Positions 1 through 44,992 of a stretch of 64,000 nt of DNA are shown here, one piece after another; position 1 is the first letter of the stretch, and each line of letters starts with the position of its first letter. A program made the translations under genes and the position numbers. Origin of the DNA: Escherichia phage AV123; the sequence record OR352953.1. One strand, given 5' to 3'. Below the pieces are notes generated by a model that searched no databases, had not been told where the DNA came from, and saw only the letters and a list, made by a program, of their open reading frames with translations.

Positions 1-582
1 ATAATACTCCTCAAACAGTTTAGTAAATGTTTTTACATCAACTACAAACCGATCTTTCCTATATGGAGAATTCTTATGTGCACCATTAATACCACTATTT
101 TCATCGAAGAAAGTAATGTTTTCTTCAGTTGAATACATTAGATAATGATCTGCATTTTTCCAATGTGGTTGTGGACAATGAGGATTACAAACGGAAAGCA
201 AGTAATTAATATTTTCCTCCGTGGCCTCAGTATCCAGGAAACACGTATTATGCACAGTCAGTTGTACTTTTTCAGCCATATCTTTTTCTTTATCCTCTTT
301 AGCAAGATATTCAGTACGAATAATCTCCAGAAAACCTTCAGGTGTTACTTCCATAAATGTATATTCAGGATGAAGCTCCATATATTCAAATCCACAACCA
401 TCTAATTGCTGTAGAAAGTTAGGGTAGAAGAACAAGTCATTAACACTGTGAATCAGATCATTGATTTCTGCTTCGGTTGTGTAACCAAAACTCTTGTGAA
501 TTGCTTCGTTAAGAATATGCAGGATACCCATCTCTTCTGCTGCTTTTTTAACTTCCAGTTTATTAGCGTAAAATGCAATCAT
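1..582 (-). CDS. hypothetical protein, partial (C-terminus beyond window start)
   Basis: ATG at 580-582 with AAGGAG RBS; minus-strand frame open for 194 codons to position 1. Confidence 0.55.
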   Translation of the reverse strand, partial: MIAFYANKLEVKKAAEEMGILHILNEAIHKSFGYTTEAEINDLIHSVNDLFFYPNFLQQLDGCGFEYMELHPEYTFMEVTPEGFLEIIRTEYLAKEDKEKDMAEKVQLTVHNTCFLDTEATEENINYLLSVCNPHCPQPHWKNADHYLMYSTEENITFFDENSGINGAHKNSPYRKDRFVVDVKTFTKLFEEYY

Positions 583-599
583 TATGTTCTCCTTCTAAA

Positions 600-1034
600 T
601 TAGTTTAAAATTTCTTTTGCAATGGTAGAAGCAAGTTTTCCATCATATTGATTCGGATACTCTGCTTTAAGGTGTTTCATCATATCTGGCATTTTCTTGC
701 CTGTCAAGGCAAATTCTTCAGCAATAGCTCGAAGATCATCTTCAGATAGCATTTCTGGCAAATATTTTTCCAGAGTGGTGATATCACGCATAGCTCGCTC
801 ACACTTGCTAATGGAGGCATTAACTTTCTTAAGTGAGTCTAGTTCCTCTTTAGCATGTGCAATACCAATCTTAACAATGTTAATCATAATATCGTCTTCT
901 GATTTATTCAGATTTGCCTTTTGAGTACGAGCAAGGTCAAACTCACCAATAATATTAGTTAACAAAGCAAAAGCACCCTTATCGGTTGTACGTGCTAAGA
1001 TACGATCTGCTTTCATTTGTGTCACAATAGACAT
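600..1034 (-). CDS. GatB/YqeY-domain protein
   Basis: 144 aa ORF; YLP..LSE and DGK..S motifs recalled from YqeY/GatB C-terminal domain proteins. Confidence 0.5.
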   Translation of the reverse strand: MSIVTQMKADRILARTTDKGAFALLTNIIGEFDLARTQKANLNKSEDDIMINIVKIGIAHAKEELDSLKKVNASISKCERAMRDITTLEKYLPEMLSEDDLRAIAEEFALTGKKMPDMMKHLKAEYPNQYDGKLASTIAKEILN

Positions 1035-1046
1035 TCTATTCTCCTC

Positions 1047-1619
1047 TTATTTGCTAATGCTTTGAATCTTATTTACAACACGGTTTATTGCCAGTGAAGC
1101 CCTAGGCTCCGCAATACCTGTTGCATAGATATAAGGATGACCTTTTGGAGACTCCCTCATACCGAATGAACCTAATTCTAAACCATATTCATCCTCTACG
1201 TCAACCCCAATATTAGTGGGTACTAAATATGTTTTAACTCCATAATAAGTAGAGAAGAAACAGCGCATAGAGTTAGCATACTCTTCAATTGTAGCATCAG
1301 GGTAGAACTCAATCAACTCCAATTTCAAGAAAATATTAAAATGGGTATCATCTAAATTTTCTTCTGTGCGGTAACATGGTGTTAGTGCCATATAAGGATT
1401 ACCTGCTGCAAATTCAAAACCATCCTTCTCCATTTGCAGGAAAGATTGTTCTGCACTAGCTACATAGTATTTACCGTTAGGATGCCCTAATGGGCGATCC
1501 TCTTTATTTTCTGGTAGTGTGTACGCCAGTATATCAGCATCCACGAGATATGGAACTTCCAACATTTGTGCAAACCGACCATAGTAATCAATAGCTTGAG
1601 CTATTACTGCAACATTCAT
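1047..1619 (-). CDS. class II aminoacyl-tRNA synthetase-like catalytic core protein (truncated paralog)
   Basis: 190 aa; CYRTEE...HFNIFLKLELIEFY resembles class IIb aaRS motif 2 (FRNE..H..EFT.lEfY); no anticodon-binding domain. Confidence 0.4.
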   Translation of the reverse strand: MNVAVIAQAIDYYGRFAQMLEVPYLVDADILAYTLPENKEDRPLGHPNGKYYVASAEQSFLQMEKDGFEFAAGNPYMALTPCYRTEENLDDTHFNIFLKLELIEFYPDATIEEYANSMRCFFSTYYGVKTYLVPTNIGVDVEDEYGLELGSFGMRESPKGHPYIYATGIAEPRASLAINRVVNKIQSISK

Positions 1620-1867
1620 GATCGACCTCCATTGCGGAATGCACGTTTAGTAATGTTCGACATAGTGATCAAATCTTGAAGCGTCATATCAGGAAAATGC
1701 TGTTCAAGAACACCTTCAACAGCGCCTACAATATCTGATAACTCAATAAGTTGCATCAGCTTGCAATCTTGATCAATAGCATCCTGAAGTTCATAAAGCT
1801 CTTCTTGAATTTTAGCAATAGAACCATATTCCTCTTTGCTAATCTCCTTCAAATGATACCCTGCCAC
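1616..1867 (-). CDS. small acidic helical protein, possibly MazG-like NTP pyrophosphohydrolase
   Basis: 83 aa; EE..E..D helical motif; stop/start overlap with neighbour. Confidence 0.35.
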   Translation of the reverse strand: MAGYHLKEISKEEYGSIAKIQEELYELQDAIDQDCKLMQLIELSDIVGAVEGVLEQHFPDMTLQDLITMSNITKRAFRNGGRS

Positions 1868-1877
1868 TTTAACCCCC

Positions 1878-3614
1878 TTAGTTTACCAGTTTATTTATGT
1901 CTGGTAAAAGATTTATTTCACCTAAAAAATCACCTTCACCTTCCTCTAGCCAACTCTCATATGCTTGTGCATGATTATAGTTACCATCAAAAGAATCTGC
2001 AACAAATTTTTCTACAGTTTTTCGAGATGTGCCAGCGCCAAATACACCAAGTTTAATACCATTGATCGGTAAAGTGGTACTTGTGGGTACTTTCTCTGTT
2101 GCAACACGGTTGATATCTATAATCTCCTGTACGGTTGTGTTCCATTGTAAGCATTTAACACAACGGGTATGCGCTACATACAGTAGGTTTCGCTCTGCCT
2201 CTTCCAGTCCTACCCATTCACCAGTCTTTTTATCATAGTTGGAAGGAAAATCATTAGCAACAATAACCTGATCCCACTCCAAACCTTTAGACTTGTGTGC
2301 TGTAGTCAGTGTGACTTTTGCTGTAGGAGAATTTCTATGCGTTCTAAGTGTATGTGCTATAGTGTTTGCCTTACCAGAAACTACGATGTTTAACAAGCGT
2401 TTAGCATCTGGATCAGCCTCTGCACACTCAACAAATTCATCCCAGTCTGCGTAAGGTAATACAGTTTCATGTTTTACTTTCTCAATATCTCCTCTACGAA
2501 GAGCATTAACACTATCTACCATAGAGATAAAATCCCTGGTATCTACGTTAATAATAATTTCTTCCCCATCTGCAATACGATCCATTGCCTCCATAAGCAA
2601 GGTTAAATTCTTGCGAAAGATGATAGTGTAAGGTTTTGTATAGTCTACAACATCTGATTTGTAGCTACCTACTACAGTATCAAAGCCTTTACCAACCAAA
2701 GGATGACGCAAAGGTTCTTTATCGCTTAAAATCATATTGGCAATGTTTGCCACTTTGGGGCCAAAACGGAAGCAAGCAGTTAATGGAAGCTCTGCCCCAT
2801 ATGTAGAGGTTTCCTTCATCATATTTTGGCTTCCACGGAACTGGTAGATGCTCTGATATTCGTCACCCACCACTACTACTTGTTTTGCAGATTTAGCATT
2901 TCGCAGAATAGACAAGAATGCAGGGTTAACATCCTGGAATTCATCCCCAAAAATAATGTCATAACCAAGATCAGCACCAGACAATTCAAACAATTTTACA
3001 TAGGTGTCATGCGTCATCAAAGTATCTGTATTAGGATCAATGCGCTCTCGCCACAATTGTTTTGCATACTTAACTACTTCTGTAATTAGTTTGTGTTCGT
3101 TAATACCTTTTCTTTTAATATCTGCAAGATGTACACCAGGAAAATGTTTACGGCTGATAAAAGGATCATCCGAAAATTCAAACTTACCTACGGTTTGCTT
3201 GATCATTAAACCAATCATAGCACGAGTTAAAAGTGTTTTCCCTCGCTTATCAATAAGATTATTAATCTTAAATTTCTTTGCTATTTCACTACCTGTACCT
3301 GCAACGTTAACATACTGTCCTTCTGGTCGTGACAGTTTTGCACGTAAACGATGATCCAGGAATTGATAGCAAATAGAATGCAATGTACGGCATTCTACAT
3401 TTAGTGGCATCTTACGTCGTGCTTCTTCTGCCATGCTTTTATTGAAAGCTAAGTAAAGAATGCGATCTTCTGTACTGTTAGCCAGCAAATAAAGTGTTGA
3501 CGTTTTGCCTGATCCAGATTTAGCTTGGATAGTTAAAAAGCGATGGTCTGGAAAAGCCTCCTTAATAGCTGTTTGCTCTTCTGTTGGAGTGAAGCTCAAC
3601 TCTTTCTTAGCCAT
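1878..3614 (-). CDS. UvrD/Rep-like SF1 DNA helicase
   Basis: Walker A AKSGSGKTST, DEFQD, VVVVGDEYQSIYQFRG; start reset to ATG 3612-3614 with GAGAGG RBS. Confidence 0.8.
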   Translation of the reverse strand: MAKKELSFTPTEEQTAIKEAFPDHRFLTIQAKSGSGKTSTLYLLANSTEDRILYLAFNKSMAEEARRKMPLNVECRTLHSICYQFLDHRLRAKLSRPEGQYVNVAGTGSEIAKKFKINNLIDKRGKTLLTRAMIGLMIKQTVGKFEFSDDPFISRKHFPGVHLADIKRKGINEHKLITEVVKYAKQLWRERIDPNTDTLMTHDTYVKLFELSGADLGYDIIFGDEFQDVNPAFLSILRNAKSAKQVVVVGDEYQSIYQFRGSQNMMKETSTYGAELPLTACFRFGPKVANIANMILSDKEPLRHPLVGKGFDTVVGSYKSDVVDYTKPYTIIFRKNLTLLMEAMDRIADGEEIIINVDTRDFISMVDSVNALRRGDIEKVKHETVLPYADWDEFVECAEADPDAKRLLNIVVSGKANTIAHTLRTHRNSPTAKVTLTTAHKSKGLEWDQVIVANDFPSNYDKKTGEWVGLEEAERNLLYVAHTRCVKCLQWNTTVQEIIDINRVATEKVPTSTTLPINGIKLGVFGAGTSRKTVEKFVADSFDGNYNHAQAYESWLEEGEGDFLGEINLLPDINKLVN

Positions 3615-3615
3615 T

Positions 3616-4092
3616 TCAACCTCTCTTAATTTGTTTAACAAGCATAGGAACAAAATCTCGTTTTAAAATTTGTTCAATAATATGATCAGGTAGCTGTTGG
3701 AAATTATAATTAAAAGCTACTGTCTCACCTTTAGGTGTTTCTACCCGCACATATAACATGTTACGAAGTTTATCCACTTGTGCTGTATATTCTAAACCAT
3801 GTAATTGATGCATTGCAAACATCAAATCATCAGTTTCAGTTTGTAATCTATCATTTGCTTGCATCAAGGACAAGGTAAAAGGTAGATTTTCCCTAAGAGC
3901 CACCTTCTTAGGAACTAGTGAAGGAAAATACTCACCAATAACTTCCTGTGTAAGCTGGATACACTCTTTTTCAAGTTGGTTTTGTTCCTTAAGTTCACAA
4001 ACACTTTTTTGTAAAGTGTTAACCTCTTTTTGCAAAGCTGCTAGTTGAGCACTTAACTTTCTTTTTTGATTACGACCAAAACGTTTAGACAT
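3616..4092 (-). CDS. hypothetical protein (coiled-coil N-terminus)
   Basis: 158 aa ORF tightly packed between neighbours. Confidence 0.55.
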   Translation of the reverse strand: MSKRFGRNQKRKLSAQLAALQKEVNTLQKSVCELKEQNQLEKECIQLTQEVIGEYFPSLVPKKVALRENLPFTLSLMQANDRLQTETDDLMFAMHQLHGLEYTAQVDKLRNMLYVRVETPKGETVAFNYNFQQLPDHIIEQILKRDFVPMLVKQIKRG

Positions 4093-4100
4093 ATTTCCCC

Positions 4101-4616
4101 CTAGTAAAACCCTTTAACAATCTGTATTAACTCGGCACAACGGTTGACCAACTTTTCCTCATACAATACACGTTGTGGCATATGTTGTATAATATACTCC
4201 ATTTGCTCATGCCATGTCCACTTTTCTTTTTTGTCTGGGATAACATCACTAGCACGAGAATTATCTTTTAATGTTTGTATAATCCAATTGCTTGGAAAGT
4301 GCTCTCCACCTTTCTTAAATGGTTTATAGTGGCCTAGAGTAAATTGAGAATCCCCTGTTAGAGCACCCAATTTATTTAGATGGATAATCAAACTACGAAA
4401 CACATAGTATTCATAGATGTTATCCACCGTATAGCAAGCATAATATTTCAAGATGCCCTTATCTCGCGGATACTTACCAACATCCAGATTGCACCAGTTG
4501 ACATTTTCTGGATCATAGTGGTGTTCCTTAAGCCATATTTCTCTTTCATCAAAGTCTGGATATATTACCGCTCTGCTTACAGAGTCAACAAGTGGAGATT
4601 GAGCATCAAAAAACAT
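4101..4616 (-). CDS. hypothetical protein
   Basis: 171 aa ORF. Confidence 0.55.
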   Translation of the reverse strand: MFFDAQSPLVDSVSRAVIYPDFDEREIWLKEHHYDPENVNWCNLDVGKYPRDKGILKYYACYTVDNIYEYYVFRSLIIHLNKLGALTGDSQFTLGHYKPFKKGGEHFPSNWIIQTLKDNSRASDVIPDKKEKWTWHEQMEYIIQHMPQRVLYEEKLVNRCAELIQIVKGFY

Positions 4617-4637
4617 TATATTTTCCTTATTGGTTTG

Positions 4638-5003
4638 TTAAACGTTTTCTAAATCTTTTAAGGCATTACCCAACGTTAGAACAATAACATCATTTGCTGC
4701 CTCTTCCCCATTGATATTGGTGAAATTTGGTGTTACAAAAGTAACCATATAAAACTCGTCCACCTGGAAGATAGCAATAACACCATCCATCTTAACATCT
4801 TGACGAAAGGAAAAACCAATCATCTTCTCTTGCAAAGGCATATCCCCTTCCTTCATTACTGCCAGGGAGTCTTCAGGAATGTTATATTTATCTGCTCCGA
4901 TGTAGATGTATGTAATGTTATCTTTATCGTGATGATACAGGGTTGCTTTTTCCATATCTAAACCTGACAGATCAAATACGTTAATTTCTTGTGTAGTCTT
5001 CAT
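4638..5003 (-). CDS. hypothetical protein
   Basis: start reset to ATG 5001-5003 (GGGAGGA RBS); track N-extension overlaps upstream gene. Confidence 0.55.
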   Translation of the reverse strand: MKTTQEINVFDLSGLDMEKATLYHHDKDNITYIYIGADKYNIPEDSLAVMKEGDMPLQEKMIGFSFRQDVKMDGVIAIFQVDEFYMVTFVTPNFTNINGEEAANDVIVLTLGNALKDLENV

Positions 5004-5367
5004 AAATATCCTCCCAAATCCAATAATCATCTGTGTAAGTAGGATGCCTTTTATCCCACTCTGTTCTAGCCCAAGCAACCGCTGCTACCAACACATCACC
5101 ATGACAAGGTTGAGGTGCGCAGAAGCAAACTAAGTCTTTCCCTTCTAATTCTAACAAATCCTCAAGAGTGATTTTACCACAACGAATTTGTTCCCACAAC
5201 CACTCTTTATATCTTTGTATAGTTGACCCTCGTGGTTCATCATCCTTTAACTTAAAAGGATTTGCAAACTTTGAGGCTTTTAACCCCATATGAGGCATAG
5301 CTCTGCCAATGTAAACTGCACCTTCAGGTATTACTTTACCTAAGTGGTAAAAATTTAATACTTTCAT
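4981..5367 (-). CDS. DUF4326-family protein
   Basis: YIGR...NPF...C.C.P.PCHGDVL motifs; start reset to ATG 5365-5367. Confidence 0.5.
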   Translation of the reverse strand: MKVLNFYHLGKVIPEGAVYIGRAMPHMGLKASKFANPFKLKDDEPRGSTIQRYKEWLWEQIRCGKITLEDLLELEGKDLVCFCAPQPCHGDVLVAAVAWARTEWDKRHPTYTDDYWIWEDIYEDYTRN

Positions 5368-5368
5368 A

Positions 5369-5719
5369 TTAACCCAAACACATCTGTGCAATCAAGCCCT
5401 GTATAAATTTATTAGCTTCTTTACTGTCGTAGTCAGTCTCTTCTGGATATCCATCTTCATCGTACACAACTGTACCTTCAATATACCCTGCCTCAATTAA
5501 GGCGCGGATCATATCAAATTGCCAGCATGAGTTACCAAATGGACGTTTACCATTAAAACACTCTTCTTCTCTCCATAACGTAGAGAGTAGTTGTCGGAAA
5601 TATTCCCGTACAGTGACAGTACCAAGATCTGAATCCTCAAACATAACATCCAAGGCATCAGGATTGCTTTTCTCTACATAAGGAATATATTTAACACCAT
5701 TAATAGTTACATCAAGCAT
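5369..5719 (-). CDS. hypothetical protein
   Basis: 116 aa ORF. Confidence 0.5.
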   Translation of the reverse strand: MLDVTINGVKYIPYVEKSNPDALDVMFEDSDLGTVTVREYFRQLLSTLWREEECFNGKRPFGNSCWQFDMIRALIEAGYIEGTVVYDEDGYPEETDYDSKEANKFIQGLIAQMCLG

Positions 5720-6082
5720 TTATTTCTCCTTATCATCATATTCTAGGAACATATCTGCACGATATGCTTTACGCTCTTCAAACTTAGCAGGATCTACAAC
5801 AATAAGCAATACAAGGTTAACATCTAAATACTTCTTAACAAATAGAAATAAATCTTTTCCACAGTTAAAACCTACACCAGTATAGGCATCCCCATATTGA
5901 TCTACTGATTTAATCTTCTTACTAACCGTACACTCTATGCTATTCTTTTCTTCTTGGTATAAGGCTTTCCCACCCCAATATGTAAAGAATTTAGTACCGT
6001 CAGCACCAAGTTTAAAACCCTCTGTTGCATGTCCCGCAAATGAAAGTAAACATAACCAAGTGATCATCAGGTACTTTAGCAT
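5720..6082 (-). CDS. secreted protein with N-terminal signal peptide
   Basis: MLKYLMITWLCLLSFAGHA signal-like N-terminus; ATG 6080-6082 with GGGTGG RBS. Confidence 0.55.
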   Translation of the reverse strand: MLKYLMITWLCLLSFAGHATEGFKLGADGTKFFTYWGGKALYQEEKNSIECTVSKKIKSVDQYGDAYTGVGFNCGKDLFLFVKKYLDVNLVLLIVVDPAKFEERKAYRADMFLEYDDKEK

Positions 6083-6083
6083 T

Positions 6084-6566
6084 TTAACCACCCAATTGTA
6101 AATGTTTAGAAAGAACAATATCCCATTGATCACCACAGCCGTTATCTATGCGGAACATAATGTACGTATCATCTTCTTCTACGACATATAATACCTCATA
6201 GGAATTACAACAACCTTCCCAATTTTTAACAGCCTCTGGTGTATCATGTGTAAGAATTTCATTACCATCGTATGACCAAAACAAAGGGGTAAGGTTTTCG
6301 AAGGTCAGTGAAGTAGGGTTTACTTCATCTTTAACTGCTTCCTCATATTCTTTATGCGTTTGTACTGCTTTAGTTAGTGTACTCATGTCTATCTCCTTTT
6401 CTCCTTCTTGACTATGGAGGATAGCGAACTCTCTAAACTCCACTTCACGCCATGTTTTTAGGTAGTGCTTTATAATTTTATCAACATCTGCCTGTTCAAC
6501 ATTACTTTTCAAGCAATAGTAATCATGGTCTTCGCCCATTCTACCCCATATGCTATACCTTGTCAT
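6084..6566 (-). CDS. hypothetical protein
   Basis: 160 aa ORF. Confidence 0.5.
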   Translation of the reverse strand: MTRYSIWGRMGEDHDYYCLKSNVEQADVDKIIKHYLKTWREVEFREFAILHSQEGEKEIDMSTLTKAVQTHKEYEEAVKDEVNPTSLTFENLTPLFWSYDGNEILTHDTPEAVKNWEGCCNSYEVLYVVEEDDTYIMFRIDNGCGDQWDIVLSKHLQLGG

Positions 6567-6834
6567 CTGATTGATCCTTTACATTGCTCTTGGTATACAC
6601 AGGAATAACATCGTGTTGATCTTTATTACTTTCATCTGTTAAAGCCCAAAACAACTTACCTGCTGGATGTTTAAAGATGTAGGCAATAGGTTCCTCTTCC
6701 TGTGCTTCTTTGCTACGGATACCATCCCGCCAGGCAAGCCAAGTGTAGATCATCACTTCTTGACGTTCTTCTTCGTTAGGCCACATATGTGGTGGGAAGG
6801 TTTTATCAAACCATTGCTTAAATTCTTCGGTCAT
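6553..6834 (-). CDS. hypothetical protein
   Basis: 93 aa ORF. Confidence 0.5.
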   Translation of the reverse strand: MTEEFKQWFDKTFPPHMWPNEEERQEVMIYTWLAWRDGIRSKEAQEEEPIAYIFKHPAGKLFWALTDESNKDQHDVIPVYTKSNVKDQSDDKV

Positions 6835-6844
6835 AATCTACTCC

Positions 6845-7009
6845 TTAACGTACAAAGTTAACCTCTGCTTCTTTCAGCTTTGACACTTCTACATAACCAC
6901 CATGATCATCTTTAATCCATTCTTTTCCTTTACGGATGATAACAGGGTAGGTAGAGTGAGTAAGTTTAGGTACAGATCTTTTTGTTTTAGTGATAGAAAT
7001 GTTTTGCAT
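6845..7009 (-). CDS. small hypothetical protein (54 aa)
   Basis: hand-translated ORF below track threshold; AGGAG RBS 6 nt upstream of ATG 7007-7009. Confidence 0.45.
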   Translation of the reverse strand: MQNISITKTKRSVPKLTHSTYPVIIRKGKEWIKDDHGGYVEVSKLKEAEVNFVR

Positions 7010-7069
7010 AATAATCTCCTTAGTAAACTTTACATAGAGTCTAGATTATTTAGTAGATAGAGTCAATAA

Positions 7070-7336
7070 CTAATTACTGTTAGATCTGTATTCTGTCTTC
7101 CATTCACAATGGTAAACTTCAACAGGTTCTAACTTCCAGTGTTCAGGAACTAGTTCAGGACAATATCTACAAAAGAGAAATAGATAGATAACTAAGACAG
7201 GTATTAAATAGTAAAATGGTATACGATCATAACCATACTTACGAGATAACATGTAGACATATAGATATGGTATAACAATTAAACCTATAACTATAAGTAA
7301 GAAGAGAAGTATAAACCTTAGTGTAGTAACATCCAT
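7070..7336 (-). CDS. small membrane protein
   Basis: 88 aa, two hydrophobic segments. Confidence 0.5.
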   Translation of the reverse strand: MDVTTLRFILLFLLIVIGLIVIPYLYVYMLSRKYGYDRIPFYYLIPVLVIYLFLFCRYCPELVPEHWKLEPVEVYHCEWKTEYRSNSN

Positions 7337-7414
7337 AGTATTCTCCTATACAGTAATATACTCTGTTCCTGCCCCTCCATGAGTGACAGGAACAATATCT
7401 ATAGAGAATACTAA

Positions 7415-7468
7415 CTCGCTTCGCTCGTCACCTTTCAGGTTTAGGGTAGCATGTTTTTCTGAAAAAGT
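7415..7468 (+). other. conserved intergenic element, copy 1 (CTCGCT-CGCTCG...TTAGGGTAGCATGTTTTT..GAAAAAGT)
   Basis: second copy at 34586-34638 with an 18-nt identical core; hairpin immediately upstream in both copies. Confidence 0.5.
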
Positions 7469-7500
7469 CAATACTCTCCACAAAACTTTACAAAATACTT

Positions 7501-7773
7501 TTACATAGGTACAACAGAATCTGTTTTGAAGTCGTACATATGATTTACACCTGTGATTTTTGACATAGAGATTGCACGTTTAGCACCTGCAATTACCTGG
7601 TCTGTCTTCTTAATCTCTTCACGGAACTTACGTACAGTTAAAGAGAAGAAACGATGATCCATCCATTGACGATTCACACGATCACGCTTGAAGTGACGGA
7701 AATCTTCAATCTGCTTATTGCGCAATCGGCGCAGTACATGCAATAGTTGATAGTAAGGGTGTTTATTTTTCAT
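7501..7773 (-). CDS. hypothetical basic protein
   Basis: 90 aa ORF. Confidence 0.5.
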   Translation of the reverse strand: MKNKHPYYQLLHVLRRLRNKQIEDFRHFKRDRVNRQWMDHRFFSLTVRKFREEIKKTDQVIAGAKRAISMSKITGVNHMYDFKTDSVVPM

Positions 7774-7776
7774 AAA

Positions 7777-8205
7777 TTATTCTCCAAATCGAAAATCGTC
7801 AATATCATCAAACCATACACAATGGCGAGTCCTTTCTTTTTCTGTTGCAGACATTGTTTCAACAGCTTTAGGACTAAGCACAACAGGAGTGTAACGAATA
7901 GGTCGTTCATAATAGTAGCCATACTTTTCTGTATTAGCTGCCTCAAAGACTTTACGGCGTTCTTCAAGATCTTCTATGGTGAATCCTACCATATAACCAT
8001 CATGTTTGCTACCCCATCCTTCCTCACTTTCAACAATCGGGATATAAAAGCCGTTACGCGTCCCTGACACTGGTTTTTCTTGAGCCTGAAGGCAAGCCTC
8101 CCATCCTGCTTTAAAGACGTTATAGAGCGATTTACGCACGTTATGAGTGCCGCTTTCGCTTGCTGGATAGAGTTCATTAAATTTGTCTTGAATTTGTTGT
8201 GTCAT
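7777..8205 (-). CDS. hypothetical protein
   Basis: 142 aa ORF. Confidence 0.5.
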   Translation of the reverse strand: MTQQIQDKFNELYPASESGTHNVRKSLYNVFKAGWEACLQAQEKPVSGTRNGFYIPIVESEEGWGSKHDGYMVGFTIEDLEERRKVFEAANTEKYGYYYERPIRYTPVVLSPKAVETMSATEKERTRHCVWFDDIDDFRFGE

Positions 8206-8348
8206 ACTCGCCCCTTAGTGATTATTTGACCAGCTAAACAAATAGCTTGTAGTACAATAAAGAAGTAGCCTAATTTTACACTACCTAATACCCAGAATGC
8301 AATGTTTGCAAACAAACAGAAAGCAATATTAAGTTTAAAGAATAACAT

Positions 8349-8549
8349 TTAATCCCCTTCATATTTAGGTAAAGGCATATATGCCACAATAGGAGGGTAA
8401 TCAAAGTGAAAATGATGGTTCACCACAATAATCTTACCAGACATACTTTTATGCACTTCACAATACCCTTTTTCACCATCTTCCATTACCACCACATACT
8501 CACCTAGTGGGATATCGTATGGATCTTCTACTTTTACCCATCCTGTCAT
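8349..8549 (-). CDS. hypothetical protein
   Basis: 66 aa ORF; ATG overlaps stop of upstream small ORF. Confidence 0.45.
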   Translation of the reverse strand: MTGWVKVEDPYDIPLGEYVVVMEDGEKGYCEVHKSMSGKIIVVNHHFHFDYPPIVAYMPLPKYEGD

Positions 8550-8698
8550 TTTGTAAACTCCTCATAGTAAGGTAAAGCCTTGATCAGTTGTTCTGAAGTG
8601 CCATTTTGCACCCACGTAACACCATTGTCAACAGAAACATACCCTTTTTTGTCAATAAATTTACGCAGACAACCAGTGAACTTATTTTTGTAGATCAT
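8546..8698 (-). CDS. small hypothetical protein (50 aa)
   Basis: hand-translated; stop/start overlap with neighbours on both sides. Confidence 0.4.
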   Translation of the reverse strand: MIYKNKFTGCLRKFIDKKGYVSVDNGVTWVQNGTSEQLIKALPYYEEFTK

Positions 8699-8862
8699 TT
8701 CTTCTTTCCTTTTTTGATTACAGCCCCATCACTTCCTTGCCAAACTTCCGCTCTAAATTCCATCTCAAACCACTCACCACCGCAAAAACGGCTGTGTTCA
8801 ACACGTCTATCTTCCTTCATTGCTTCTTTAGCTTCGATAGAAGTTAGTTCGATGTTTTGCAT
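8695..8862 (-). CDS. small hypothetical protein
   Basis: start reset to ATG 8860-8862 with AAAGGAG RBS; first gene of minus block. Confidence 0.45.
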   Translation of the reverse strand: MQNIELTSIEAKEAMKEDRRVEHSRFCGGEWFEMEFRAEVWQGSDGAVIKKGKKK

Positions 8863-8893
8863 TTGCTTTTCTCCTTTCATTTGGTATGCGCTA

Positions 8894-8921
8894 ATCTTAA
8901 CAAAATAAAAATGTATGTCAA
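8894..8921 (-). promoter_or_regulatory. sigma70-like promoter for the minus-strand block
   Basis: minus strand TTGACA-16-TAAGAT upstream of 8862 gene in the divergent region. Confidence 0.45.
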
Positions 8922-8980
8922 TACTTGATTTGAAATTAGTTTCTGGTACTCTGTGTGTATCGTAACAAAAGAGGTTAGAT

Positions 8981-9271
8981 ATGAACATCACACTAGCAAC
9001 TAAGAATATTACAGAAACTTTCGATGGTTTTGGCATTATTATTGCTGTTCATGGGCATAACGAAAAATGGTTAGCCTCTTTTGAAGAGGACAAAGAACGC
9101 AATGTACGTTTGAATGCACCAATCAAAGTTTTACACCAGGTAGGTGAGAATAAGAAACAATGGAGATCATACAAAGAGTGGAACATTACAAACGAATTAA
9201 TACACAAACTTGACAAAGTGCTAAACATGTTCGACAATGCACCAAGCAGTGCAAAACGTGTTTTACTATAA
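8981..9271 (+). CDS. hypothetical protein
   Basis: 96 aa; AGAGG RBS. Confidence 0.55.
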   Translation: MNITLATKNITETFDGFGIIIAVHGHNEKWLASFEEDKERNVRLNAPIKVLHQVGENKKQWRSYKEWNITNELIHKLDKVLNMFDNAPSSAKRVLL

Positions 9272-9282
9272 AGGAGAGTGAT

Positions 9283-9636
9283 ATGAAAATTGTACACGAT
9301 GAAATTCAATTTGAAGAGAGTGATCTTCTTGATCTGGATGTGACACTAAGTAAACTGATCTACAACGCACTTTCTGCATATCGTGCAAAAGTGATAGCCA
9401 CAAACAATGTTAAAATTCCTAGCGGGTTACTTCGTCGGATGTACCCACACGCTAAAGGTGACTATCTACCTTATATGGAAGAACGAGCAGCAGAACACTG
9501 GTTAGAAATTCTTGAAAAAATGGAGTCCTCTTTTAAGGATTCAACTCCACCTGAAGAAGTTAATGAAAAACAACGGCAAGAGCGTTTAGAAGGTCGTATT
9601 TTGTTTGCTAAGTATTTCCATAATTTGTGGAGCTAA
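9283..9636 (+). CDS. hypothetical protein
   Basis: 117 aa; AAGGAG RBS. Confidence 0.55.
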   Translation: MKIVHDEIQFEESDLLDLDVTLSKLIYNALSAYRAKVIATNNVKIPSGLLRRMYPHAKGDYLPYMEERAAEHWLEILEKMESSFKDSTPPEEVNEKQRQERLEGRILFAKYFHNLWS

Positions 9637-9716
9637 ACATATCTGGTAAAATCACTTATATGTTCTTAGTATACTTGTGTAAAGAAGTTATCGGTCTAAT
9701 TAATTAAGGGGAAGAT

Positions 9717-9968
9717 ATGATTCAGTTTCAAAAAGGTCAAAAGATGACAGTTCACGATGCAGAGGAAATGGAGTTTGCACTTAAACTTCTCGAAAATGCT
9801 GGGTTTGTGTGGATCAACGGTGGAGAGAAGCCTACAGCTTGGCTTCCGCATGAGAAAATAGCCAACCACACCTTCCCTGATAGTATCAATTGGCATTCTG
9901 ATGGTAAGATTTGCCGTGGAAGTTACCCAACAGGTGTTGAGTGGACTATTAAATTAGGAGGGCTTTAA
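9717..9968 (+). CDS. hypothetical protein
   Basis: 83 aa; AAGGGG RBS. Confidence 0.5.
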   Translation: MIQFQKGQKMTVHDAEEMEFALKLLENAGFVWINGGEKPTAWLPHEKIANHTFPDSINWHSDGKICRGSYPTGVEWTIKLGGL

Positions 9969-9969
9969 T

Positions 9970-10559: not shown

Positions 10560-10579
10560 AATACAGATGGGAGAAAGGT

Positions 10580-10753: not shown

Positions 10754-10767
10754 GTGAGGAATAAAGA

Positions 10768-11205: not shown

Positions 11206-11217
11206 AAGGGGTTTAAA

Positions 11218-12345: not shown

Positions 12346-12361
12346 GTAAGCCAGCAAATAA

Positions 12362-12390: not shown

Positions 12391-12419
12391 GATGCCAGAT
12401 TTAATAAGAGGAGTAATAG

Positions 12420-13409: not shown

Positions 13410-13961
13410 ATGCGGATTACTGATAAGTATGTGTTCTTCTTTTCAGCAAAAGATGAATTTAGCAACTGGTATCTATCATCTTTTATTGAACCTTTAGCAC
13501 CCAAGTATAATAATTCTATTACAAGTTCTGTTGAATTTACTTGTGTGGAACAATATATGATGTGGAGAAAAGCATGTTTGTTTTATGATTACAGTATTGC
13601 ATCTTCTATTTTAACCGGAGATCTAAGATATACAGGAGAAAAAGAACAAGCATATTATAAGCGACTAGGCAGATTAGTTAAAGATTATGATGAAGATACC
13701 TGGACTTCTTTACGGGAGAAGATTGTCAAACGTGGTTTGTATCTTAAATACACACAAAATGAAGATCTCAAAAATAAACTTATAACCTACGCAGATAAGG
13801 AGTTCGTAGAGGCAAGCCCTTATGATTCTATTTATGGTATCAAAATGGGGATGTGGGATCGTGACGTGGAAAATAAGGACTGTTGGAAAGGACAAAATCT
13901 TTTAGGAAAATGGCATACAGACCTTGCTGTTTATCTAAAAGCACAATCTGATATTTCCTGA
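13410..13961 (+). CDS. NADAR (YbiA-like) domain protein
   Basis: 183 aa; FF.S..EFSNW, VEQYMMW.KA, SPYDSIYGIKMG, NLLGK motifs recalled from NADAR/DUF1768. Confidence 0.6.
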   Translation: MRITDKYVFFFSAKDEFSNWYLSSFIEPLAPKYNNSITSSVEFTCVEQYMMWRKACLFYDYSIASSILTGDLRYTGEKEQAYYKRLGRLVKDYDEDTWTSLREKIVKRGLYLKYTQNEDLKNKLITYADKEFVEASPYDSIYGIKMGMWDRDVENKDCWKGQNLLGKWHTDLAVYLKAQSDIS

Positions 13962-38951: not shown

Positions 38952-39764
38952 TTACTTAGTCAAATGATCTTCTATCATTTTTATGAAAGCAGGATTGCTA
39001 AAAGCATCTGCTGCCTTTTCTCTATAAACAAAGACTCCTCTATCTTCGTAAAGAAGAGTTTCTTCGTAATTAATTCCTGGGTTAACAACAATCATTTTTG
39101 TACCCATAGTAAGTGCAGGGAATAATTCCCAATTAAAATTGATAACTTGGTTTGAACATCCTACTACAACAACCAAATCTTGCATGGTCAAAGTATCAAA
39201 CAAGTGAGCCATATCTGCATACAAAGGTGCAGCCTCACCAAAAAATACAACATTAGGCTTCACCCAGTTATAATCATCTATGTTTATACTATTGTAACCA
39301 ATGTCTACCAGTGTTTTGTAATCTCCAGGATGCATACGGTAAACTACTTCAGGGAGATACCCGTGCACGTGAATAACAGAATCCCTGTCCACACCTGCTC
39401 GCTCTAGTAGATCATCGACGTTTGTTGTCAAGTTTACTACTTGGTTAGGATATTCCTTAAACCACTTTGCTATTTGAATATGTGCAGCATTAGGTTGTAC
39501 ATCTTTAAGCTCAACACGTCTTTTGTTATAAAATTCGTGTGTTTTGGCATATAAGTCCATACCGTTCTCGTCTACACCACCGACCACTGGAAGATCTGGA
39601 GATGTTCTCACACGATAACCTGCTTGGAAAGCTCCAATATCGCAGACCTCTTCTAAGTCATATTCTTCCCATAAGGCACGACCACTATCTGTGTCTGTTC
39701 GGAACGTTCGAATCCCACTGTCTGCACTTAAACCTGCGCCACTAACAAAAATTACTCTTCGCAT
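38952..39764 (-). CDS. Sir2-family NAD-dependent deacylase/ADP-ribosyltransferase-like protein
   Basis: GAGLSADSGIRTFR, TTNVDDL, HVHG, VVVVGCS sirtuin motifs; 270 aa. Confidence 0.7.
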   Translation of the reverse strand: MRRVIFVSGAGLSADSGIRTFRTDTDSGRALWEEYDLEEVCDIGAFQAGYRVRTSPDLPVVGGVDENGMDLYAKTHEFYNKRRVELKDVQPNAAHIQIAKWFKEYPNQVVNLTTNVDDLLERAGVDRDSVIHVHGYLPEVVYRMHPGDYKTLVDIGYNSINIDDYNWVKPNVVFFGEAAPLYADMAHLFDTLTMQDLVVVVGCSNQVINFNWELFPALTMGTKMIVVNPGINYEETLLYEDRGVFVYREKAADAFSNPAFIKMIEDHLTK

Positions 39765-42838: not shown

Positions 42839-43359
42839 ACAACCTCCTCGTAGTTGTTATTGTGTTTTACTGTCTCAACATACAATAAAGATTCCATCTG
42901 TAATACATTACCAGAAATAATAAACCCATAAGCCATTTCAGATGTGTCTATATCATATGCCCCGTCTTCCGGTTTAGCAAAGTGTAAAACTATTTCATCC
43001 GGGTTTTCTTCATCCCATAGTTTAGAAATTTTCCGAACCAGAATGTTAGCTAAAATAGTTGACATTCGGGATAAAGCTGTATCCTCATATCTTTTAAAAC
43101 CTAGCCAATAGAGGTTAAGAATTTCTACTTCTTCTTGTGTTAAGTTTTTGTCTAAAGTAATCAGATCTGTAGAGCACGGCGTTTTTGTTGAACCTACTGT
43201 TACAAAACCTGGAGTGTTATGAAAAACAATCTTAACTTTATCACGTATAAAGTTTAAACCTTGTGCCTCAACTATATATTGTATTGTAGGTACAATATCG
43301 TTTGTTACATCAATAAAACTATCTTTAATGACGCTTATATTATTTCTGGACAAGACCAT
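42835..43359 (-). CDS. hypothetical protein
   Basis: 174 aa; AGAGGAGA RBS. Confidence 0.55.
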   Translation of the reverse strand: MVLSRNNISVIKDSFIDVTNDIVPTIQYIVEAQGLNFIRDKVKIVFHNTPGFVTVGSTKTPCSTDLITLDKNLTQEEVEILNLYWLGFKRYEDTALSRMSTILANILVRKISKLWDEENPDEIVLHFAKPEDGAYDIDTSEMAYGFIISGNVLQMESLLYVETVKHNNNYEEVV

Positions 43360-43918
43360 TCTCCTCTAAAATAGGCTTAATAAACTCGAAAATTTGTTTT
43401 TTACTTTTACCTCTAATATTAAAACAAGGAACATTAAACTTTTTAGCCAACATCCAAGCTGTTCTTGTACCACCTAAAGGATCTCCATTTTTATCTGTAT
43501 TTGCACAAGCTAAAAGAAAACAAGATGGTTTTGGATTCTCAAGATCTCTGCCAAGAACTTGGTGGATATTCCTTTGATGTAATTTTTTAGCACCTTGAGA
43601 TAATCTGTCCCAAGCCGGATGCAATTCTTTTGCATATTGTAAGGTTAAAGCATAGTTTACACTATCTGGTCTGTCAAGAACAATAACCTCTCCCTCTATT
43701 TCATTACCTTTAAACGAGAGCCAAGGGATGTATATTTCTTTCTTTGTATTGTTCCCACTATCATATACCCCGCATTCAAATGCGGAATCTGCACCTTCTG
43801 CTTTACCAGATCGCAAAATGAACCATGTAGATAACCATTTTGCAACAGATACCATAGTATCCCATTCTTCGTCTGTAATATCTCTGCTACCAACACCTGT
43901 GTAGAATAAATCGCTCAT
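43340..43918 (-). CDS. DprA/Smf-like Rossmann-fold (SLOG-type) protein
   Basis: GVGSRD...SGKAEGADSAFECG resembles DprA SGgA.G.D motif; start reset to ATG 43916-43918 (AAGGAG RBS). Confidence 0.4.
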   Translation of the reverse strand: MSDLFYTGVGSRDITDEEWDTMVSVAKWLSTWFILRSGKAEGADSAFECGVYDSGNNTKKEIYIPWLSFKGNEIEGEVIVLDRPDSVNYALTLQYAKELHPAWDRLSQGAKKLHQRNIHQVLGRDLENPKPSCFLLACANTDKNGDPLGGTRTAWMLAKKFNVPCFNIRGKSKKQIFEFIKPILEENGLVQK

Positions 43919-43928: not shown

Positions 43929-44249
43929 TTAACAAGTAATATTGGGAGTAACAATTGGATTAACAATTGGAGTAATAGGGTACGTAAACCAAGGGCTTCC
44001 AATTTCCCAAGGATTATAAGGTCTACGAGGATCAAATGGGGGAGTTACTTCAGGCTTTTTCCAAATCTCCGCTAGTTGTTTCTTCCATTTATCCCTTGCT
44101 GTCTCATTATCTTCATCCAACTGTTCATCATTATCTTTTATTTCTGGTTTTGGAAATAAAAGCTCTTTGACTAACTCAACATCTTCCGTCTCAATAGTAG
44201 TTTCTTTCGTAAGTTCTCCTACTGTTTCTTTAATTGTGATTTTATACAT
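43929..44249 (-). CDS. hypothetical protein
   Basis: 106 aa; GAGGAGG RBS. Confidence 0.55.
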   Translation of the reverse strand: MYKITIKETVGELTKETTIETEDVELVKELLFPKPEIKDNDEQLDEDNETARDKWKKQLAEIWKKPEVTPPFDPRRPYNPWEIGSPWFTYPITPIVNPIVTPNITC

Positions 44250-44992
44250 TAGTCCTCCTCTAAAGTAGAATAAAATTGTAACGTATTTGAATCATCAAAA
44301 TATGCAAAGGTTAAATTACCATTGAAGCAAGATCCTGTGTCCATATATACCCTATTACTGCTAATCACAGGTTTAGGAACATAAGAATGCCCGTGAAATA
44401 CATAATCTACTCCTGAAACCCTAGGAAGAAGAATTCCTTCAAGTGCGCAATCTATCATATCACGATCCCACATTAAAGATTCTGTGAATCGAGAAACTTG
44501 CTCTTTATTCATATTCAAACAAAATGGCAAAACTTCTGTCACTGGTAAATGTTCCAAAACTGAAGGATACCCACCGTGAATAAAGCCTAGTTTCATATTA
44601 CGATAATTGACAACAAGTACAACAGGTAAATCTTCTAGCATCAAAGCAAGAGCAGTTGCACCCTCTTCTCCACACTCGTCTAGAACTGTATGGCCTCCGT
44701 TCTGAAACCAACATTCGTAATATCGTCTATCACCTTCTAGCAACCCTTTAATCATCATATCTTCATGATTTCCACGAATACCATAACGATTTAGCTTTCT
44801 GGTGAATTCAACAACACAACGAAAATTCTGCTTGCCGCGATCTGTAAGATCTCCTAAAGATACAACAACATCTTGATCTCGGATACCTAAAGTATTAACA
44901 CCTTTCTGGTACAAATCAAAGCAACCATGTAAATCACCAATAATAAACAGGTCTTGATCATCTTTTACACTAATTTCTTGATATACTAGCAT
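44249..44992 (-). CDS. lambda-type Ser/Thr metallophosphatase
   Basis: GDLHG, GDLTDRG, GNHE motifs; start reset from TTG to ATG 44990-44992. Confidence 0.8.
   Translation of the reverse strand: MLVYQEISVKDDQDLFIIGDLHGCFDLYQKGVNTLGIRDQDVVVSLGDLTDRGKQNFRCVVEFTRKLNRYGIRGNHEDMMIKGLLEGDRRYYECWFQNGGHTVLDECGEEGATALALMLEDLPVVLVVNYRNMKLGFIHGGYPSVLEHLPVTEVLPFCLNMNKEQVSRFTESLMWDRDMIDCALEGILLPRVSGVDYVFHGHSYVPKPVISSNRVYMDTGSCFNGNLTFAYFDDSNTLQFYSTLEED

What the first reader, a model, noticed from the sequence alone, without database searches (positions are those of the whole stretch)
4981..5367. DUF4326-family protein: a second ADP-ribose/NAD-linked candidate
YIGR...NPF...C.C.P.PCHGDVL is the signature I recall for DUF4326, a family found with NADAR and macro domains in ADP-ribose-processing contexts. 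With the NADAR and Sir2-like genes, this window holds three genes plausibly acting on NAD or ADP-ribose, consistent with a distributed counter-defence or host NAD-manipulation toolkit.
Basis: partly seen in the sequence, partly recalled or inferred. Interest (0 to 1): 0.45.

Follow-up and report, generated by a model that had tools for sequence, protein, structure and literature searches.

The report
Phage DUF4326 protein, function untested

Summary
The ORF at 4981-5367 (minus strand, 128 aa) exists and carries the quoted motifs. It matches Pfam DUF4326 at E 1.5e-21 (77 bits, cutoff 25). The window is a phi92-like E. coli myophage (Justusliebigvirus), and the gene is the Phi92_gp202 orthologue. 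Non-synonymous divergence from orthologues is modest while synonymous sites are saturated, so the gene is under purifying selection.

Public records call it "NrdA-like ribonucleotide reductase". That name was carried over from the T4 ORF nrdA.1, which is itself DUF4326. The protein has no reductase domain.

My own census confirms the recalled associations. Among 47 long family members, NADAR occurs in 8, SLOG-type domains in 4-5 and Macro in 1-2. In viral contigs I found NADAR and SLOG fusions and adjacent genes. In two relatives the gene lies between orthologues of this window's metallophosphatase and SLOG genes.

NADAR (13410-13961) and Sir2 (38952-39764) are in the window, but 8 and 34 kb away in other gene arrays. 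Sir2 was never a neighbour in other phages.

The chemistry is unknown. The signature R22, N36, R46 and C81-x-C83-x(4-8)-C88-H89 is near-invariant. The high-confidence model has no significant solved relative. An ADP-ribose or ribose-phosphate substrate is an inference, already published by Iyer, Burroughs and Aravind.

The parts
4981..5367 (-). CDS of the stand-alone DUF4326 protein (128 aa plus stop); orthologue of Phi92_gp202
   Evidence: ORF list and translation. Pfam PF14216 E 1.5e-21. 99-100% identical proteins in phi92-like phages. dN well below dS.
5086..5340 (-). DUF4326 domain proper (residues 10-94). The C-terminal ~20 residues (from about residue 108) are a low-confidence acidic/aromatic tail.
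   Evidence: Pfam envelope. AF2 pLDDT is at least 90 through about residue 110 and 53-58 for residues 111-128.
5302..5313 (-). YIGR motif (Y19 I20 G21 R22), directly after strand beta2; R22 is near-invariant
   Evidence: R22 is conserved in 144 of 154 representative domains.
5254..5262 (-). NPF motif (N36 P37 F38) in the loop before helix alpha1
   Evidence: N36 and P37 are each conserved in 149 of 154 domains.
5230..5232 (-). R46 codon, at the N-terminal cap of helix alpha1
   Evidence: R46 is invariant in 69 viral domains and conserved in 141 of 154 representatives. The helix spans residues 46-62.
5089..5127 (-). C81-F-C83-A-P-Q-P-C88-H89-G-D-V-L: end of strand beta3, loop and start of helix alpha3; the putative catalytic or metal centre
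   Evidence: C81 153/154, C83 153/154, C88 154/154, H89 152/154. Strand 79-81 and helix 89-107. The loop between C83 and C88 is 4 or 8 residues long in homologues.
13410..13961 (+). NADAR-domain gene; a possible partner acting in trans. It is the last gene of the rightward array that diverges from the same intergenic region (9229-9282) as the leftward array holding DUF4326.
   Evidence: Pfam PF08719 E 5.8e-36. ORF map. NADAR-DUF4326 fusions or adjacency elsewhere.
43340..43918 (-). SLOG/DprA-like gene (100% identical to Phi92_gp047); a possible partner acting in trans
   Evidence: phrog_768 E 8.6e-60. hhalign to YAcAr-type SLOG gives E 8.8e-5 with the GSR...SG.A.GAD motifs aligned. Its orthologues lie 0.7-0.8 kb from DUF4326 in L018 and L013.
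44249..44992 (-). Calcineurin-like metallophosphatase gene, 10 nt upstream of a 106-aa ORF that precedes the SLOG gene
   Evidence: Pfam PF00149 E 3.1e-13. Its orthologue ends 162 nt before the DUF4326 gene in L018.
38952..39764 (-). Sir2-family gene named in the finding; no contextual link to DUF4326 was found
   Evidence: Pfam PF02146 E 1.3e-22. No Sir2 homologue occurs near DUF4326 in 53 diverged loci.

Best explanation
The gene encodes a stand-alone DUF4326 domain. This is a compact alpha/beta module of about 95 residues. Its near-invariant residues sit where Rossmann-like enzymes place their active sites, at the C-terminal ends of strands and the N-termini of helices. Those residues are R22 (after beta2), N36-P37 (loop), R46 (N-cap of alpha1), C81 (end of beta3), C83, C88 and H89 (N-cap of alpha3).

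I infer that the two arginines and the helix dipoles hold a phosphate or ribose-phosphate group. I infer that the C-x-C...C-H cluster supplies either a thiol/His catalytic centre or a bound metal.

The same domain is repeatedly fused to, or encoded next to, NADAR (N-glycosidase of ADP-ribosyl adducts), SLOG/LOG-like domains (nucleotide binding or phosphoribohydrolase) and Macro domains. It therefore most likely carries out a complementary step on the same class of substrate: ADP-ribose or ribose-phosphate moieties on free nucleotides or on nucleic acids. Removing or transferring a ribose-linked phosphate is one example.

In this phage it would act in trans with the phage's own NADAR and SLOG/metallophosphatase genes, to undo or pre-empt host NAD+-based defence chemistry or to recycle its products.

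Shown here: the gene, family membership, purifying selection, the signature residues and the domain and neighbour associations. Inferred: substrate class, chemistry and the counter-defence role.
For: Family membership: Pfam E 1.5e-21. Family size: 22,199 representatives at 50% clustering with E <= 1e-3, and homologues in 1,828 of 50,697 phage records.

Signature: C81, C83, C88 and H89 are conserved in at least 152 of 154 domains; N36 and P37 in 149; R22 in 144; R46 in 141. Their positions relative to strands and helices come from a confident model (pLDDT 90.3, pTM 0.79).

Fusion census of 47 long members: NADAR 8 (2 also match the DarT1-associated NADAR model), YAcAr SLOG 4, DNA_processg_A 3, Macro 1, ThsA_Macro 1.

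Viral loci:
- L062 is a 3,582-aa protein with NADAR, an AlkB-like dioxygenase, DUF4326 and an SF1 helicase.
- L005 is a DUF4326+NADAR fusion.
- L042 has a NADAR gene overlapping the DUF4326 start by 4 nt.
- L067, L068 and L075 are DUF4326+YpsA SLOG fusions.
- L065 and L076 are YAcAr+DUF4326 fusions.
- L033, L048 and L084 have a YAcAr gene within 300 nt.

Synteny: in L018 and L013 the DUF4326 gene lies between orthologues of this window's metallophosphatase and SLOG genes.

Literature: independent published predictions reach the same conclusion (PMC7824862, PMC9503650), and SLOG-DUF4326 fusions are reported in amoeba viruses (10.1101/2025.06.06.658234).
Against: No DUF4326 protein has a measured activity or a solved structure.

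All 120 listed closest homologues, and most of the viral-locus and representative hits, are single-domain proteins. In 44 dereplicated viral loci no neighbour family dominates.

In this window the gene's immediate neighbours are all of unknown function. The NADAR, SLOG and Sir2 genes lie 8-38 kb away.

In T4-like phages the homologue sits among nucleotide-synthesis genes.
Confidence: 0.5

Rival explanations
1. It is an accessory enzyme of nucleotide-precursor metabolism. It would act on free nucleotides or ribose phosphates to feed or balance the phage dNTP supply, with no role in defence evasion.
For: The T4-like homologue nrdA.1 is a DUF4326 protein (E 1.3e-21) and lies between td/nrdA.2 and nrdA. 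Ribonucleotide reductase large-subunit homologues lie 2-6 kb from DUF4326 in L054, L018 and L077. NadR-like neighbours (CTP_transf_like plus AAA_28) occur in 2 loci. The leftward array of this window continues into NrdD/NrdG in phage Paula. LOG-like SLOG enzymes release ribose 5-phosphate from nucleotides (10.1101/2025.06.06.658234).
Against: The recurrent covalent partners are NADAR and Macro, whose known substrates are ADP-ribosyl adducts. Proximity to reductase genes may only reflect the general clustering of early and metabolic genes in large phages. No nucleotide-metabolism family dominates the neighbour census.
Confidence: 0.2
2. It is a nucleic-acid repair or end-processing enzyme. It would act on damaged or modified DNA or RNA, for example by removing a terminal phosphate or a residual adduct, alongside helicases and dealkylating or de-ADP-ribosylating enzymes.
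For: L062 fuses NADAR, an AlkB-like 2OG-Fe(II) oxygenase, DUF4326 and an SF1 helicase in a single 3,582-aa protein. Two fused NADARs match the DarT1-associated NADAR model, and that class reverses DNA guanine ADP-ribosylation (own knowledge of Schuller et al. 2023). Neighbours in the census include DNA polymerases, helicases, an amino acid:DNA transferase and a 5-hmdU DNA kinase. A UvrD-type helicase lies 1.4 kb downstream in this window. Iyer et al. 2021 note fusions to replication and restriction-modification components.
Against: These contexts are single instances. No nucleic-acid-binding domain or motif is detected in the 128-aa protein. This rival overlaps the best explanation if the substrate is ADP-ribosylated DNA.
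Confidence: 0.15
3. It is a non-catalytic small zinc-binding protein. It would serve as a ligand sensor, adaptor or inhibitor, with the C-x-C...C-H cluster holding a structural metal.
For: Three Cys and one His are all near-invariant. The loop between C83 and C88 tolerates a 4-residue insertion. Both features are typical of structural zinc sites and atypical of a phosphate-binding loop. No enzyme fold is matched in the PDB. One family member, P0361, carries three tandem copies of the domain.
Against: R22, N36, P37 and R46 are also conserved, and they sit at the strand ends and helix N-termini typical of active sites. Fusion to enzymes as an extra domain suits a catalytic or substrate-binding role equally well. 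Adjacent C88-H89 is an unusual ligand pair for one metal (own knowledge).
Confidence: 0.1
4. It is a ribonucleotide reductase alpha-subunit-like protein, as labelled in several GenBank records and in phrog_24867.
For: Only the labels: 'NrdA-like ribonucleotide reductase' and 'ribonucleoside-diphosphate reductase 1 alpha subunit'.
Against: The protein is 128 aa with a single DUF4326 domain and no reductase domain. The real NrdA homologue is a separate gene at 56933-59005. The label traces to the T4 ORF name nrdA.1, a positional name.
Confidence: 0.01

Closest known systems
Phi92_gp202 and its orthologues in Justusliebigvirus and other Stephanstirmvirinae phages
   Same: The protein is the same gene: 99-100% identical in phage arall and vB_vPM_PD06, and 83-93% in related phages. 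It has the same position in the same gene array.
   Different: Nothing of substance differs. The public records call it hypothetical or wrongly 'NrdA-like'.
T4-type NrdA.1 (Tequatrovirus ORF between nrdA.2 and nrdA)
   Same: It matches the same Pfam family (E 1.3e-21) and has the same R, N, R and C-x-C-x4-C-H-G-D signature. It too is a small stand-alone protein with no known function.
   Different: Only about 39% identity over the C-terminal half. The N-terminal motifs differ (IHRG and WGNY in place of YIGR and ANPF). It lies inside the nucleotide-synthesis cluster, whereas the window gene sits among unknown small genes.
[quoted passage not shown]
   Same: It is a small alpha/beta domain with a conserved strand-loop-helix element bearing Cys/His. 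One close homologue hits Pfam DUF488-N3a at E 0.002 and one long member at E 2.6e-6. By eye, the order of motifs is collinear with YeaO.
NADAR domain (E. coli YbiA; DarT1-associated NADAR)
Cys-dependent phosphatases and rhodaneses (CX5R active-site loop)
   Same: A conserved Cys lies at the end of a beta-strand, followed by a loop and a helix N-terminus, with arginines nearby. This is the chemistry predicted in PMC9503650.

Membership tests
DUF4326 (Pfam PF14216) | Score above the Pfam gathering threshold over most of the model | tested here: met
   77.3 bits against a cutoff of 25, E 1.5e-21, model positions 5-81 of 82. All 69 aligned homologues also match.
DUF4326 (Pfam PF14216) | Family signature: G-R after strand 2, N-P-F/Y, a conserved Arg at the start of helix 1, and C-x-C-x(4-8)-C-H-G | tested here: met
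   All are present in the window protein. They are conserved in 141-154 of 154 domains from representatives clustered at 50% identity.
Rhodanese-phosphatase superfamily (RapZ-C-DUF488-DUF4326 clade, as published) | Rossmann-like alpha/beta fold detectably similar to solved phosphatase, rhodanese or RapZ-C structures | tested here: inconclusive
Rhodanese-phosphatase superfamily (RapZ-C-DUF488-DUF4326 clade, as published) | Canonical C-X5-R phosphate-binding loop | tested here: not met
   The sequence is C81-F-C83-A-P-Q-P-C88-H89, with no Arg. The C83-C88 spacing is 4 or 8 residues among homologues. The published clade is described as having variant active sites, so this does not exclude distant membership.
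Rhodanese-phosphatase superfamily (RapZ-C-DUF488-DUF4326 clade, as published) | Sequence-profile link to DUF488 | tested here: inconclusive
   Pfam DUF488-N3a at E 0.002 and DUF488 at E 0.1 in single close homologues. E 2.6e-6 and 8.5e-5 in one long member, which could be a separate domain. hhalign against YeaO and its orthologues is negative, but that profile is shallow.
NADAR (Pfam PF08719) | Profile match and the conserved NADAR catalytic residues | tested here: not met
Ribonucleotide reductase alpha subunit (the database label 'NrdA-like') | Reductase barrel or ATP-cone domains in a protein of about 750 aa | tested here: not met
   The protein is 128 aa and DUF4326 is its only domain. The phage's real large subunit is at 56933-59005.
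Co-located NAD/ADP-ribose gene module in this window | DUF4326, NADAR and Sir2 adjacent, or in one gene array, or recurrently neighbouring across phages | tested here: not met
   The genes lie at 4981-5367 (-), 13410-13961 (+) and 38952-39764 (-). NADAR neighbours or fuses with DUF4326 in some other viruses. Sir2 never does in the loci examined.
Enzymes acting on NAD+ or ADP-ribose | Demonstrated binding or turnover of NAD+, ADP-ribose or a derivative | not testable with these tools
   No DUF4326 structure or assay was found in the PDB or in the literature searches.

The most novel reading that the evidence does not exclude
DUF4326 is the third enzyme of a split SLOG-metallophosphatase-DUF4326 pathway. 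The pathway is contiguous in some relatives (L018, L013) and dispersed in phi92-like phages. It would dismantle a nucleotide- or ADP-ribose-derived host immune product, using a previously undescribed Cys/His or metal centre on a ribose-linked phosphate. A DprA/LOG-like phage protein (ORF83) is reported to inhibit type III Avs. If the window's SLOG gene (Phi92 gp047) is its counterpart, this module would be an anti-defence pathway.
Probability: 0.15. Interest if true: 0.65.

Novelty: already known. Interest (0 to 1): 0.33.

Why it matters
DUF4326 is a large family: about 22,000 clusters at 50% identity, and homologues in 1,828 of 50,697 phage records. It occurs in T4-like phages, giant viruses and archaeal viruses. 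No member has a known activity or a solved structure.

It is wired by fusion to NADAR, SLOG and Macro domains, which act in NAD+- and ADP-ribose-based host-virus conflict. Determining its chemistry would therefore fill a recurring gap in that network. A phi92-like coliphage with a stand-alone copy is a convenient system for that work.

For this window in particular, the result is a correct but routine annotation. The only immediate practical output is a correction of the widespread 'NrdA-like ribonucleotide reductase' label.

Tried and rejected

2. Confirming the published rhodanese-phosphatase placement.
- The AlphaFold database library was not available.
- PDB sequence and profile searches gave only chance hits: a GST, the Der p 1 allergen and GrpE.

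3. Profile link to DUF488 through E. coli YeaO. The last large homology search returned only close enterobacterial orthologues of a clade that lacks the Cys motif. hhalign was therefore uninformative. In hindsight this was a poor choice of seed.

4. A dominant conserved neighbour. The Pfam census of 150 neighbours from 44 dereplicated loci showed none. The top families were Metallophos (3) and YAcAr (3).

5. Promoter and terminator scan of 500-9800. Counts were no better than in shuffled sequence, 29 against 31.8 expected.

6. PADLOC, NCBIfam and E. coli genome DNA searches for the DUF4326 gene found nothing.

7. Reading Burroughs and Aravind 2023. The paper is not held.

8. Literature searches for nrdA.1, PF14216 and DUF488 gave no functional data.

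9. Metal-site geometry could not be checked, because model coordinates are not exposed by the tools.

Full report
**1. Observation**

The region 4981-5367 holds a minus-strand ORF of 128 codons plus a TAA stop. All three recalled motifs are present exactly:
- YIGR, residues 19-22.
- NPF, residues 36-38.
- C-F-C-A-P-Q-P-C-H-G-D-V-L, residues 81-93.

Pfam assigns the protein to PF14216 (DUF4326) at E 1.5e-21. The score is 77.3 bits against a gathering score of 25, and the match covers almost the whole model. NCBIfam and PADLOC have no match. PHROGs places it in phrog_464 (unknown function, E 1.5e-42) and in phrog_24867, which is labelled 'NrdA-like'.

The gene is tightly packed. The upstream ORF's stop lies 1 nt before the ATG, and the 3' end overlaps the next ORF by 23 nt. 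Compared with orthologues that are 58-82% identical, dN is 0.12-0.36 while synonymous sites are saturated. It is therefore a real gene under purifying selection.

**2. Where the window comes from**

A 3-kb stretch around the gene is 98.5-99.3% identical to phi92-like E. coli myophages of the genus Justusliebigvirus, subfamily Stephanstirmvirinae, with genomes of about 146 kb. In phage Paula the gene is annotated as the counterpart of Phi92_gp202.

Several records call it 'NrdA-like ribonucleotide reductase' or 'ribonucleoside-diphosphate reductase 1 alpha subunit'. This is a naming artefact. A tblastn search links the protein to the T4-type ORF nrdA.1. That ORF is named only for its position next to nrdA, and it is itself a DUF4326 protein (E 1.3e-21). 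The window protein contains no reductase domain. The phage's true large subunit lies elsewhere, at 56933-59005.

**3. Anatomy of the protein**

*Conserved residues.* An alignment of 69 homologues shows G21, R22, N36, L74, C81, C83, C88 and H89 invariant. Conservation holds over 67 diverged viral domains plus T4 NrdA.1. It also holds over 154 domains taken from 147 representatives clustered at 50% identity:

| Residue | Conserved in (of 154) |
|---|---|
| C88 | 154 |
| C81 | 153 |
| C83 | 153 |
| H89 | 152 |
| N36 | 149 |
| P37 | 149 |
| R22 | 144 |
| R46 | 141 |

*Predicted structure.* AlphaFold2 gives a confident model (pLDDT 90.3, pTM 0.79). It has strands at residues 3-5, about 18-19 and 79-81, and helices at 46-62, 68-72 and 89-107. 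The last ~20 residues are a low-confidence tail.

*Where the conserved residues sit.* They lie at the C-terminal ends of the strands and the N-termini of the helices: R22 follows strand 2, R46 caps helix 1, C81 ends strand 3 and H89 caps helix 3. This is where Rossmann-like enzymes place their active sites. That the residues form one pocket is my inference, because I could not inspect the coordinates.

*The Cys/His loop.* The loop between C83 and C88 is 4 residues long in some homologues and 8 in others. This argues against a rigid phosphate-binding CX5R loop. It is at least as compatible with a metal-binding cluster.

**4. Fold and superfamily**

- No solved structure is related by sequence.
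- Foldseek against the PDB finds nothing better than E 2.4.

[quoted passage not shown] I could not read that paper and summarise it from memory.

My tests neither confirm nor refute the placement:
- The strand-loop-helix element is compatible with it.
- One close homologue hits Pfam DUF488-N3a at E 0.002, and one long member at E 2.6e-6.
- No phosphatase, rhodanese or RapZ structure is matched.
- The canonical CX5R motif is absent.
- hhalign against the E. coli YeaO clade is negative, though that profile is shallow and the clade lacks the Cys motif.

Foldseek against predicted viral structures returns 32 hits at E < 1e-3. Nearly all are named DUF4326 proteins, from phages, pithoviruses, pandoraviruses, marseilleviruses and haloarchaeal viruses.

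**5. Context in this window**

The gene sits in a leftward array of small genes running from about 9228 down to about 600. Its immediate neighbours have no Pfam family. A UvrD-type helicase lies 1.4 kb downstream.

| Gene | Position and strand | Evidence | Distance from DUF4326 |
|---|---|---|---|
| NADAR | 13410-13961 (+) | PF08719, E 5.8e-36 | 8 kb |
| Sir2 | 38952-39764 (-) | PF02146, E 1.3e-22 | 34 kb |
| SLOG/DprA-like | 43340-43918 (-) | phrog_768, E 8.6e-60 | 38 kb |
| Metallophosphatase | 44249-44992 (-) | PF00149, E 3.1e-13 | 39 kb |

NADAR is the last gene of the rightward array that diverges from the same intergenic region (9229-9282) as the leftward array.

The SLOG protein is 100% identical to Phi92 gp047. 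hhalign relates it to YAcAr-type SLOG domains at E 8.8e-5, with the GSR...SG.A.GAD motifs aligned.

**6. Context elsewhere**

I retrieved 80 viral loci encoding DUF4326 and analysed them locally.

Most copies are stand-alone proteins of 85-160 aa.

Fusions, confirmed with Pfam:
- L067, L068 and L075: DUF4326 plus YpsA SLOG, 1,468 aa.
- L065 and L076: YAcAr SLOG plus DUF4326.
- L062: NADAR, an AlkB-like 2OG-Fe(II) oxygenase, DUF4326 and an SF1 helicase in one 3,582-aa ORF.
- Bacillus phage AgentSmith (L005): DUF4326 plus a sub-threshold NADAR.

Adjacent genes:
- L042: a NADAR gene overlaps the DUF4326 start codon by 4 nt.
- L033, L048 and L084: YAcAr SLOG genes lie within 300 nt.

Synteny with this window: in L018 (56% identical DUF4326) and L013, the gene lies between orthologues of this window's metallophosphatase (E 8e-76) and its SLOG gene (E 3e-32). 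There it is 162 nt from the former and 0.7-0.8 kb from the latter. In some relatives, then, DUF4326 sits inside the module that in this window lies 38 kb away.

Neighbour census: 150 neighbours from 44 dereplicated loci show no dominant family. The counts were Metallophos 3, YAcAr 3, DNA_processg_A 2, NadR-like 2, plus polymerases and helicases. No Sir2 homologue was found near DUF4326 in 53 diverged loci.

**7. Family-wide fusion census**

A full HMMER search finds 22,199 representative proteins at E <= 1e-3 and 8,231 at E <= 1e-10. Among the 47 longest of the best 150, the partner domains are:
- NADAR in 8 (2 members also match the DarT1-associated NADAR model).
- YAcAr in 4.
- DNA_processg_A in 3.
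- SLOG cluster 4 in 1.
- Macro in 1 and ThsA_Macro in 1.
- ASCH in 1.

One protein, P0361, has three tandem DUF4326 copies.

This reproduces, independently, the associations reported by Iyer, Burroughs and Aravind (PMC7824862, PMC9503650). It also matches the SLOG-DUF4326 fusions in amoeba viruses reported in a 2025 preprint.

**8. Mechanism**

*Best-supported reading (confidence about 0.5).* DUF4326 is a small catalytic, or at least substrate-binding, module. It works on the same substrates as its partners: ADP-ribose or ribose-phosphate groups on nucleotides or nucleic acids. It would perform a step that complements N-glycosidic cleavage by NADAR or SLOG, such as handling a ribose-linked phosphate. 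The arginines would bind phosphate and the Cys/His cluster would serve as a thiol or metal centre. In the phage it would act in trans with the NADAR and SLOG/metallophosphatase genes, against NAD+-based host defences.

*Shown.* The gene, the family, purifying selection, the signature and the associations.

*Inferred.* The substrate, the chemistry and the biological role.

*Rivals.*
- A nucleotide-pool enzyme, suggested by the T4 nrdA.1 context and reductase proximity: 0.2.
- A nucleic-acid repair or end-processing enzyme, suggested by the AlkB-helicase fusion, the DarT1-type NADAR partners and DNA-modification neighbours: 0.15.
- A non-catalytic zinc protein, suggested by the variable loop and the four conserved ligand-type residues: 0.1.
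- A reductase subunit: refuted.

**9. Novelty and verdict**

The protein is identical or nearly so to catalogued phage proteins. Its family is in Pfam, and the ADP-ribose link is already published as a prediction. Its interpretation is right about the family and its associations, but the 'three-gene toolkit' is only co-presence in one genome. NADAR (by fusion) and SLOG, not Sir2, are the contextual partners seen in this survey.

Small additions from this work:
- The misannotation is traced to T4 nrdA.1.
- A synteny link ties the gene to this phage's own SLOG-metallophosphatase pair.
- The fold has no significant solved relative, so the proposed phosphatase-like chemistry remains unverified.

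Interest is modest. DUF4326 is a good experimental target as a family, but this instance is ordinary.

Noticed in passing
window 43340-43918 (-), with 43929-44249 and 44249-44992 (-): A SLOG/DprA-like protein lies next to a 106-aa ORF and a calcineurin-like metallophosphatase. It is 100% identical to Phi92 gp047 and matches phrog_768 at E 8.6e-60. It has no Pfam hit, but hhalign relates it to YAcAr SLOG at E 8.8e-5. Homologues occur in 1,508 phage records. A 2025 preprint describes the anti-type III Avs protein ORF83 as a DprA-annotated, LOG-like protein. Whether gp047 is its orthologue was not tested, because I had no ORF83 sequence.
   Followed up: partly
L018 7072-9735 and L013 (IMG/VR contigs): In these relatives the DUF4326 gene is inserted between orthologues of the window's metallophosphatase and SLOG genes. 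The surrounding PhoH, HslV-like and invertase genes keep the same order as in the window.
   Followed up: yes
window 4981-5367; GenBank records OM386654.1, LR865361.1, PP925835.1 and others: The gene is widely labelled 'NrdA-like ribonucleotide reductase' or 'RNR 1 alpha subunit', and phrog_24867 carries the same label. The name was transferred from the positional T4 ORF name nrdA.1. No reductase domain is present.
   Followed up: yes
L062 57-10805 (IMGVR_UViG_3300035670_000022): A single 3,582-aa ORF combines NADAR, an AlkB-like 2OG-Fe(II) oxygenase, DUF4326 and an SF1 (AAA_30) helicase. The first ~2,300 residues have no Pfam domain above threshold.
   Followed up: partly
protein P0361 (352 aa, metagenomic): Three tandem DUF4326 domains in one polypeptide (Pfam 200.8 bits, 3 stretches).
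   Followed up: no
window 9283-13961 (+): A rightward gene array ends in an AAA+/STAND-like ATPase (11218-12345), a CapR-homology plus T5orf172 protein (12420-13409) and the NADAR gene (13410-13961). The NADAR start directly abuts the preceding stop. The NADAR protein also matches the PADLOC candidate-defence model PDC-M42C (E 2.1e-34).
   Followed up: partly
window 600-1619 (-) and 45329-45901 (-): Small proteins are annotated in relatives as tRNA-synthetase or amidotransferase fragments. One is YqeY-like (PF09424, E 5.3e-7, at 600-1034). Two are 190-aa paralogue-like ORFs labelled 'seryl-' or 'histidyl-tRNA synthetase' with no Pfam hit. These labels look doubtful.
   Followed up: no
window 38952-40972 (-): The Sir2-family gene is followed by two ORFs of 176 and 203 aa with no Pfam family. 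A cytosine-methyltransferase-like gene lies beyond them at 41096-42085. The role of a phage-encoded Sir2 here is open.
   Followed up: no
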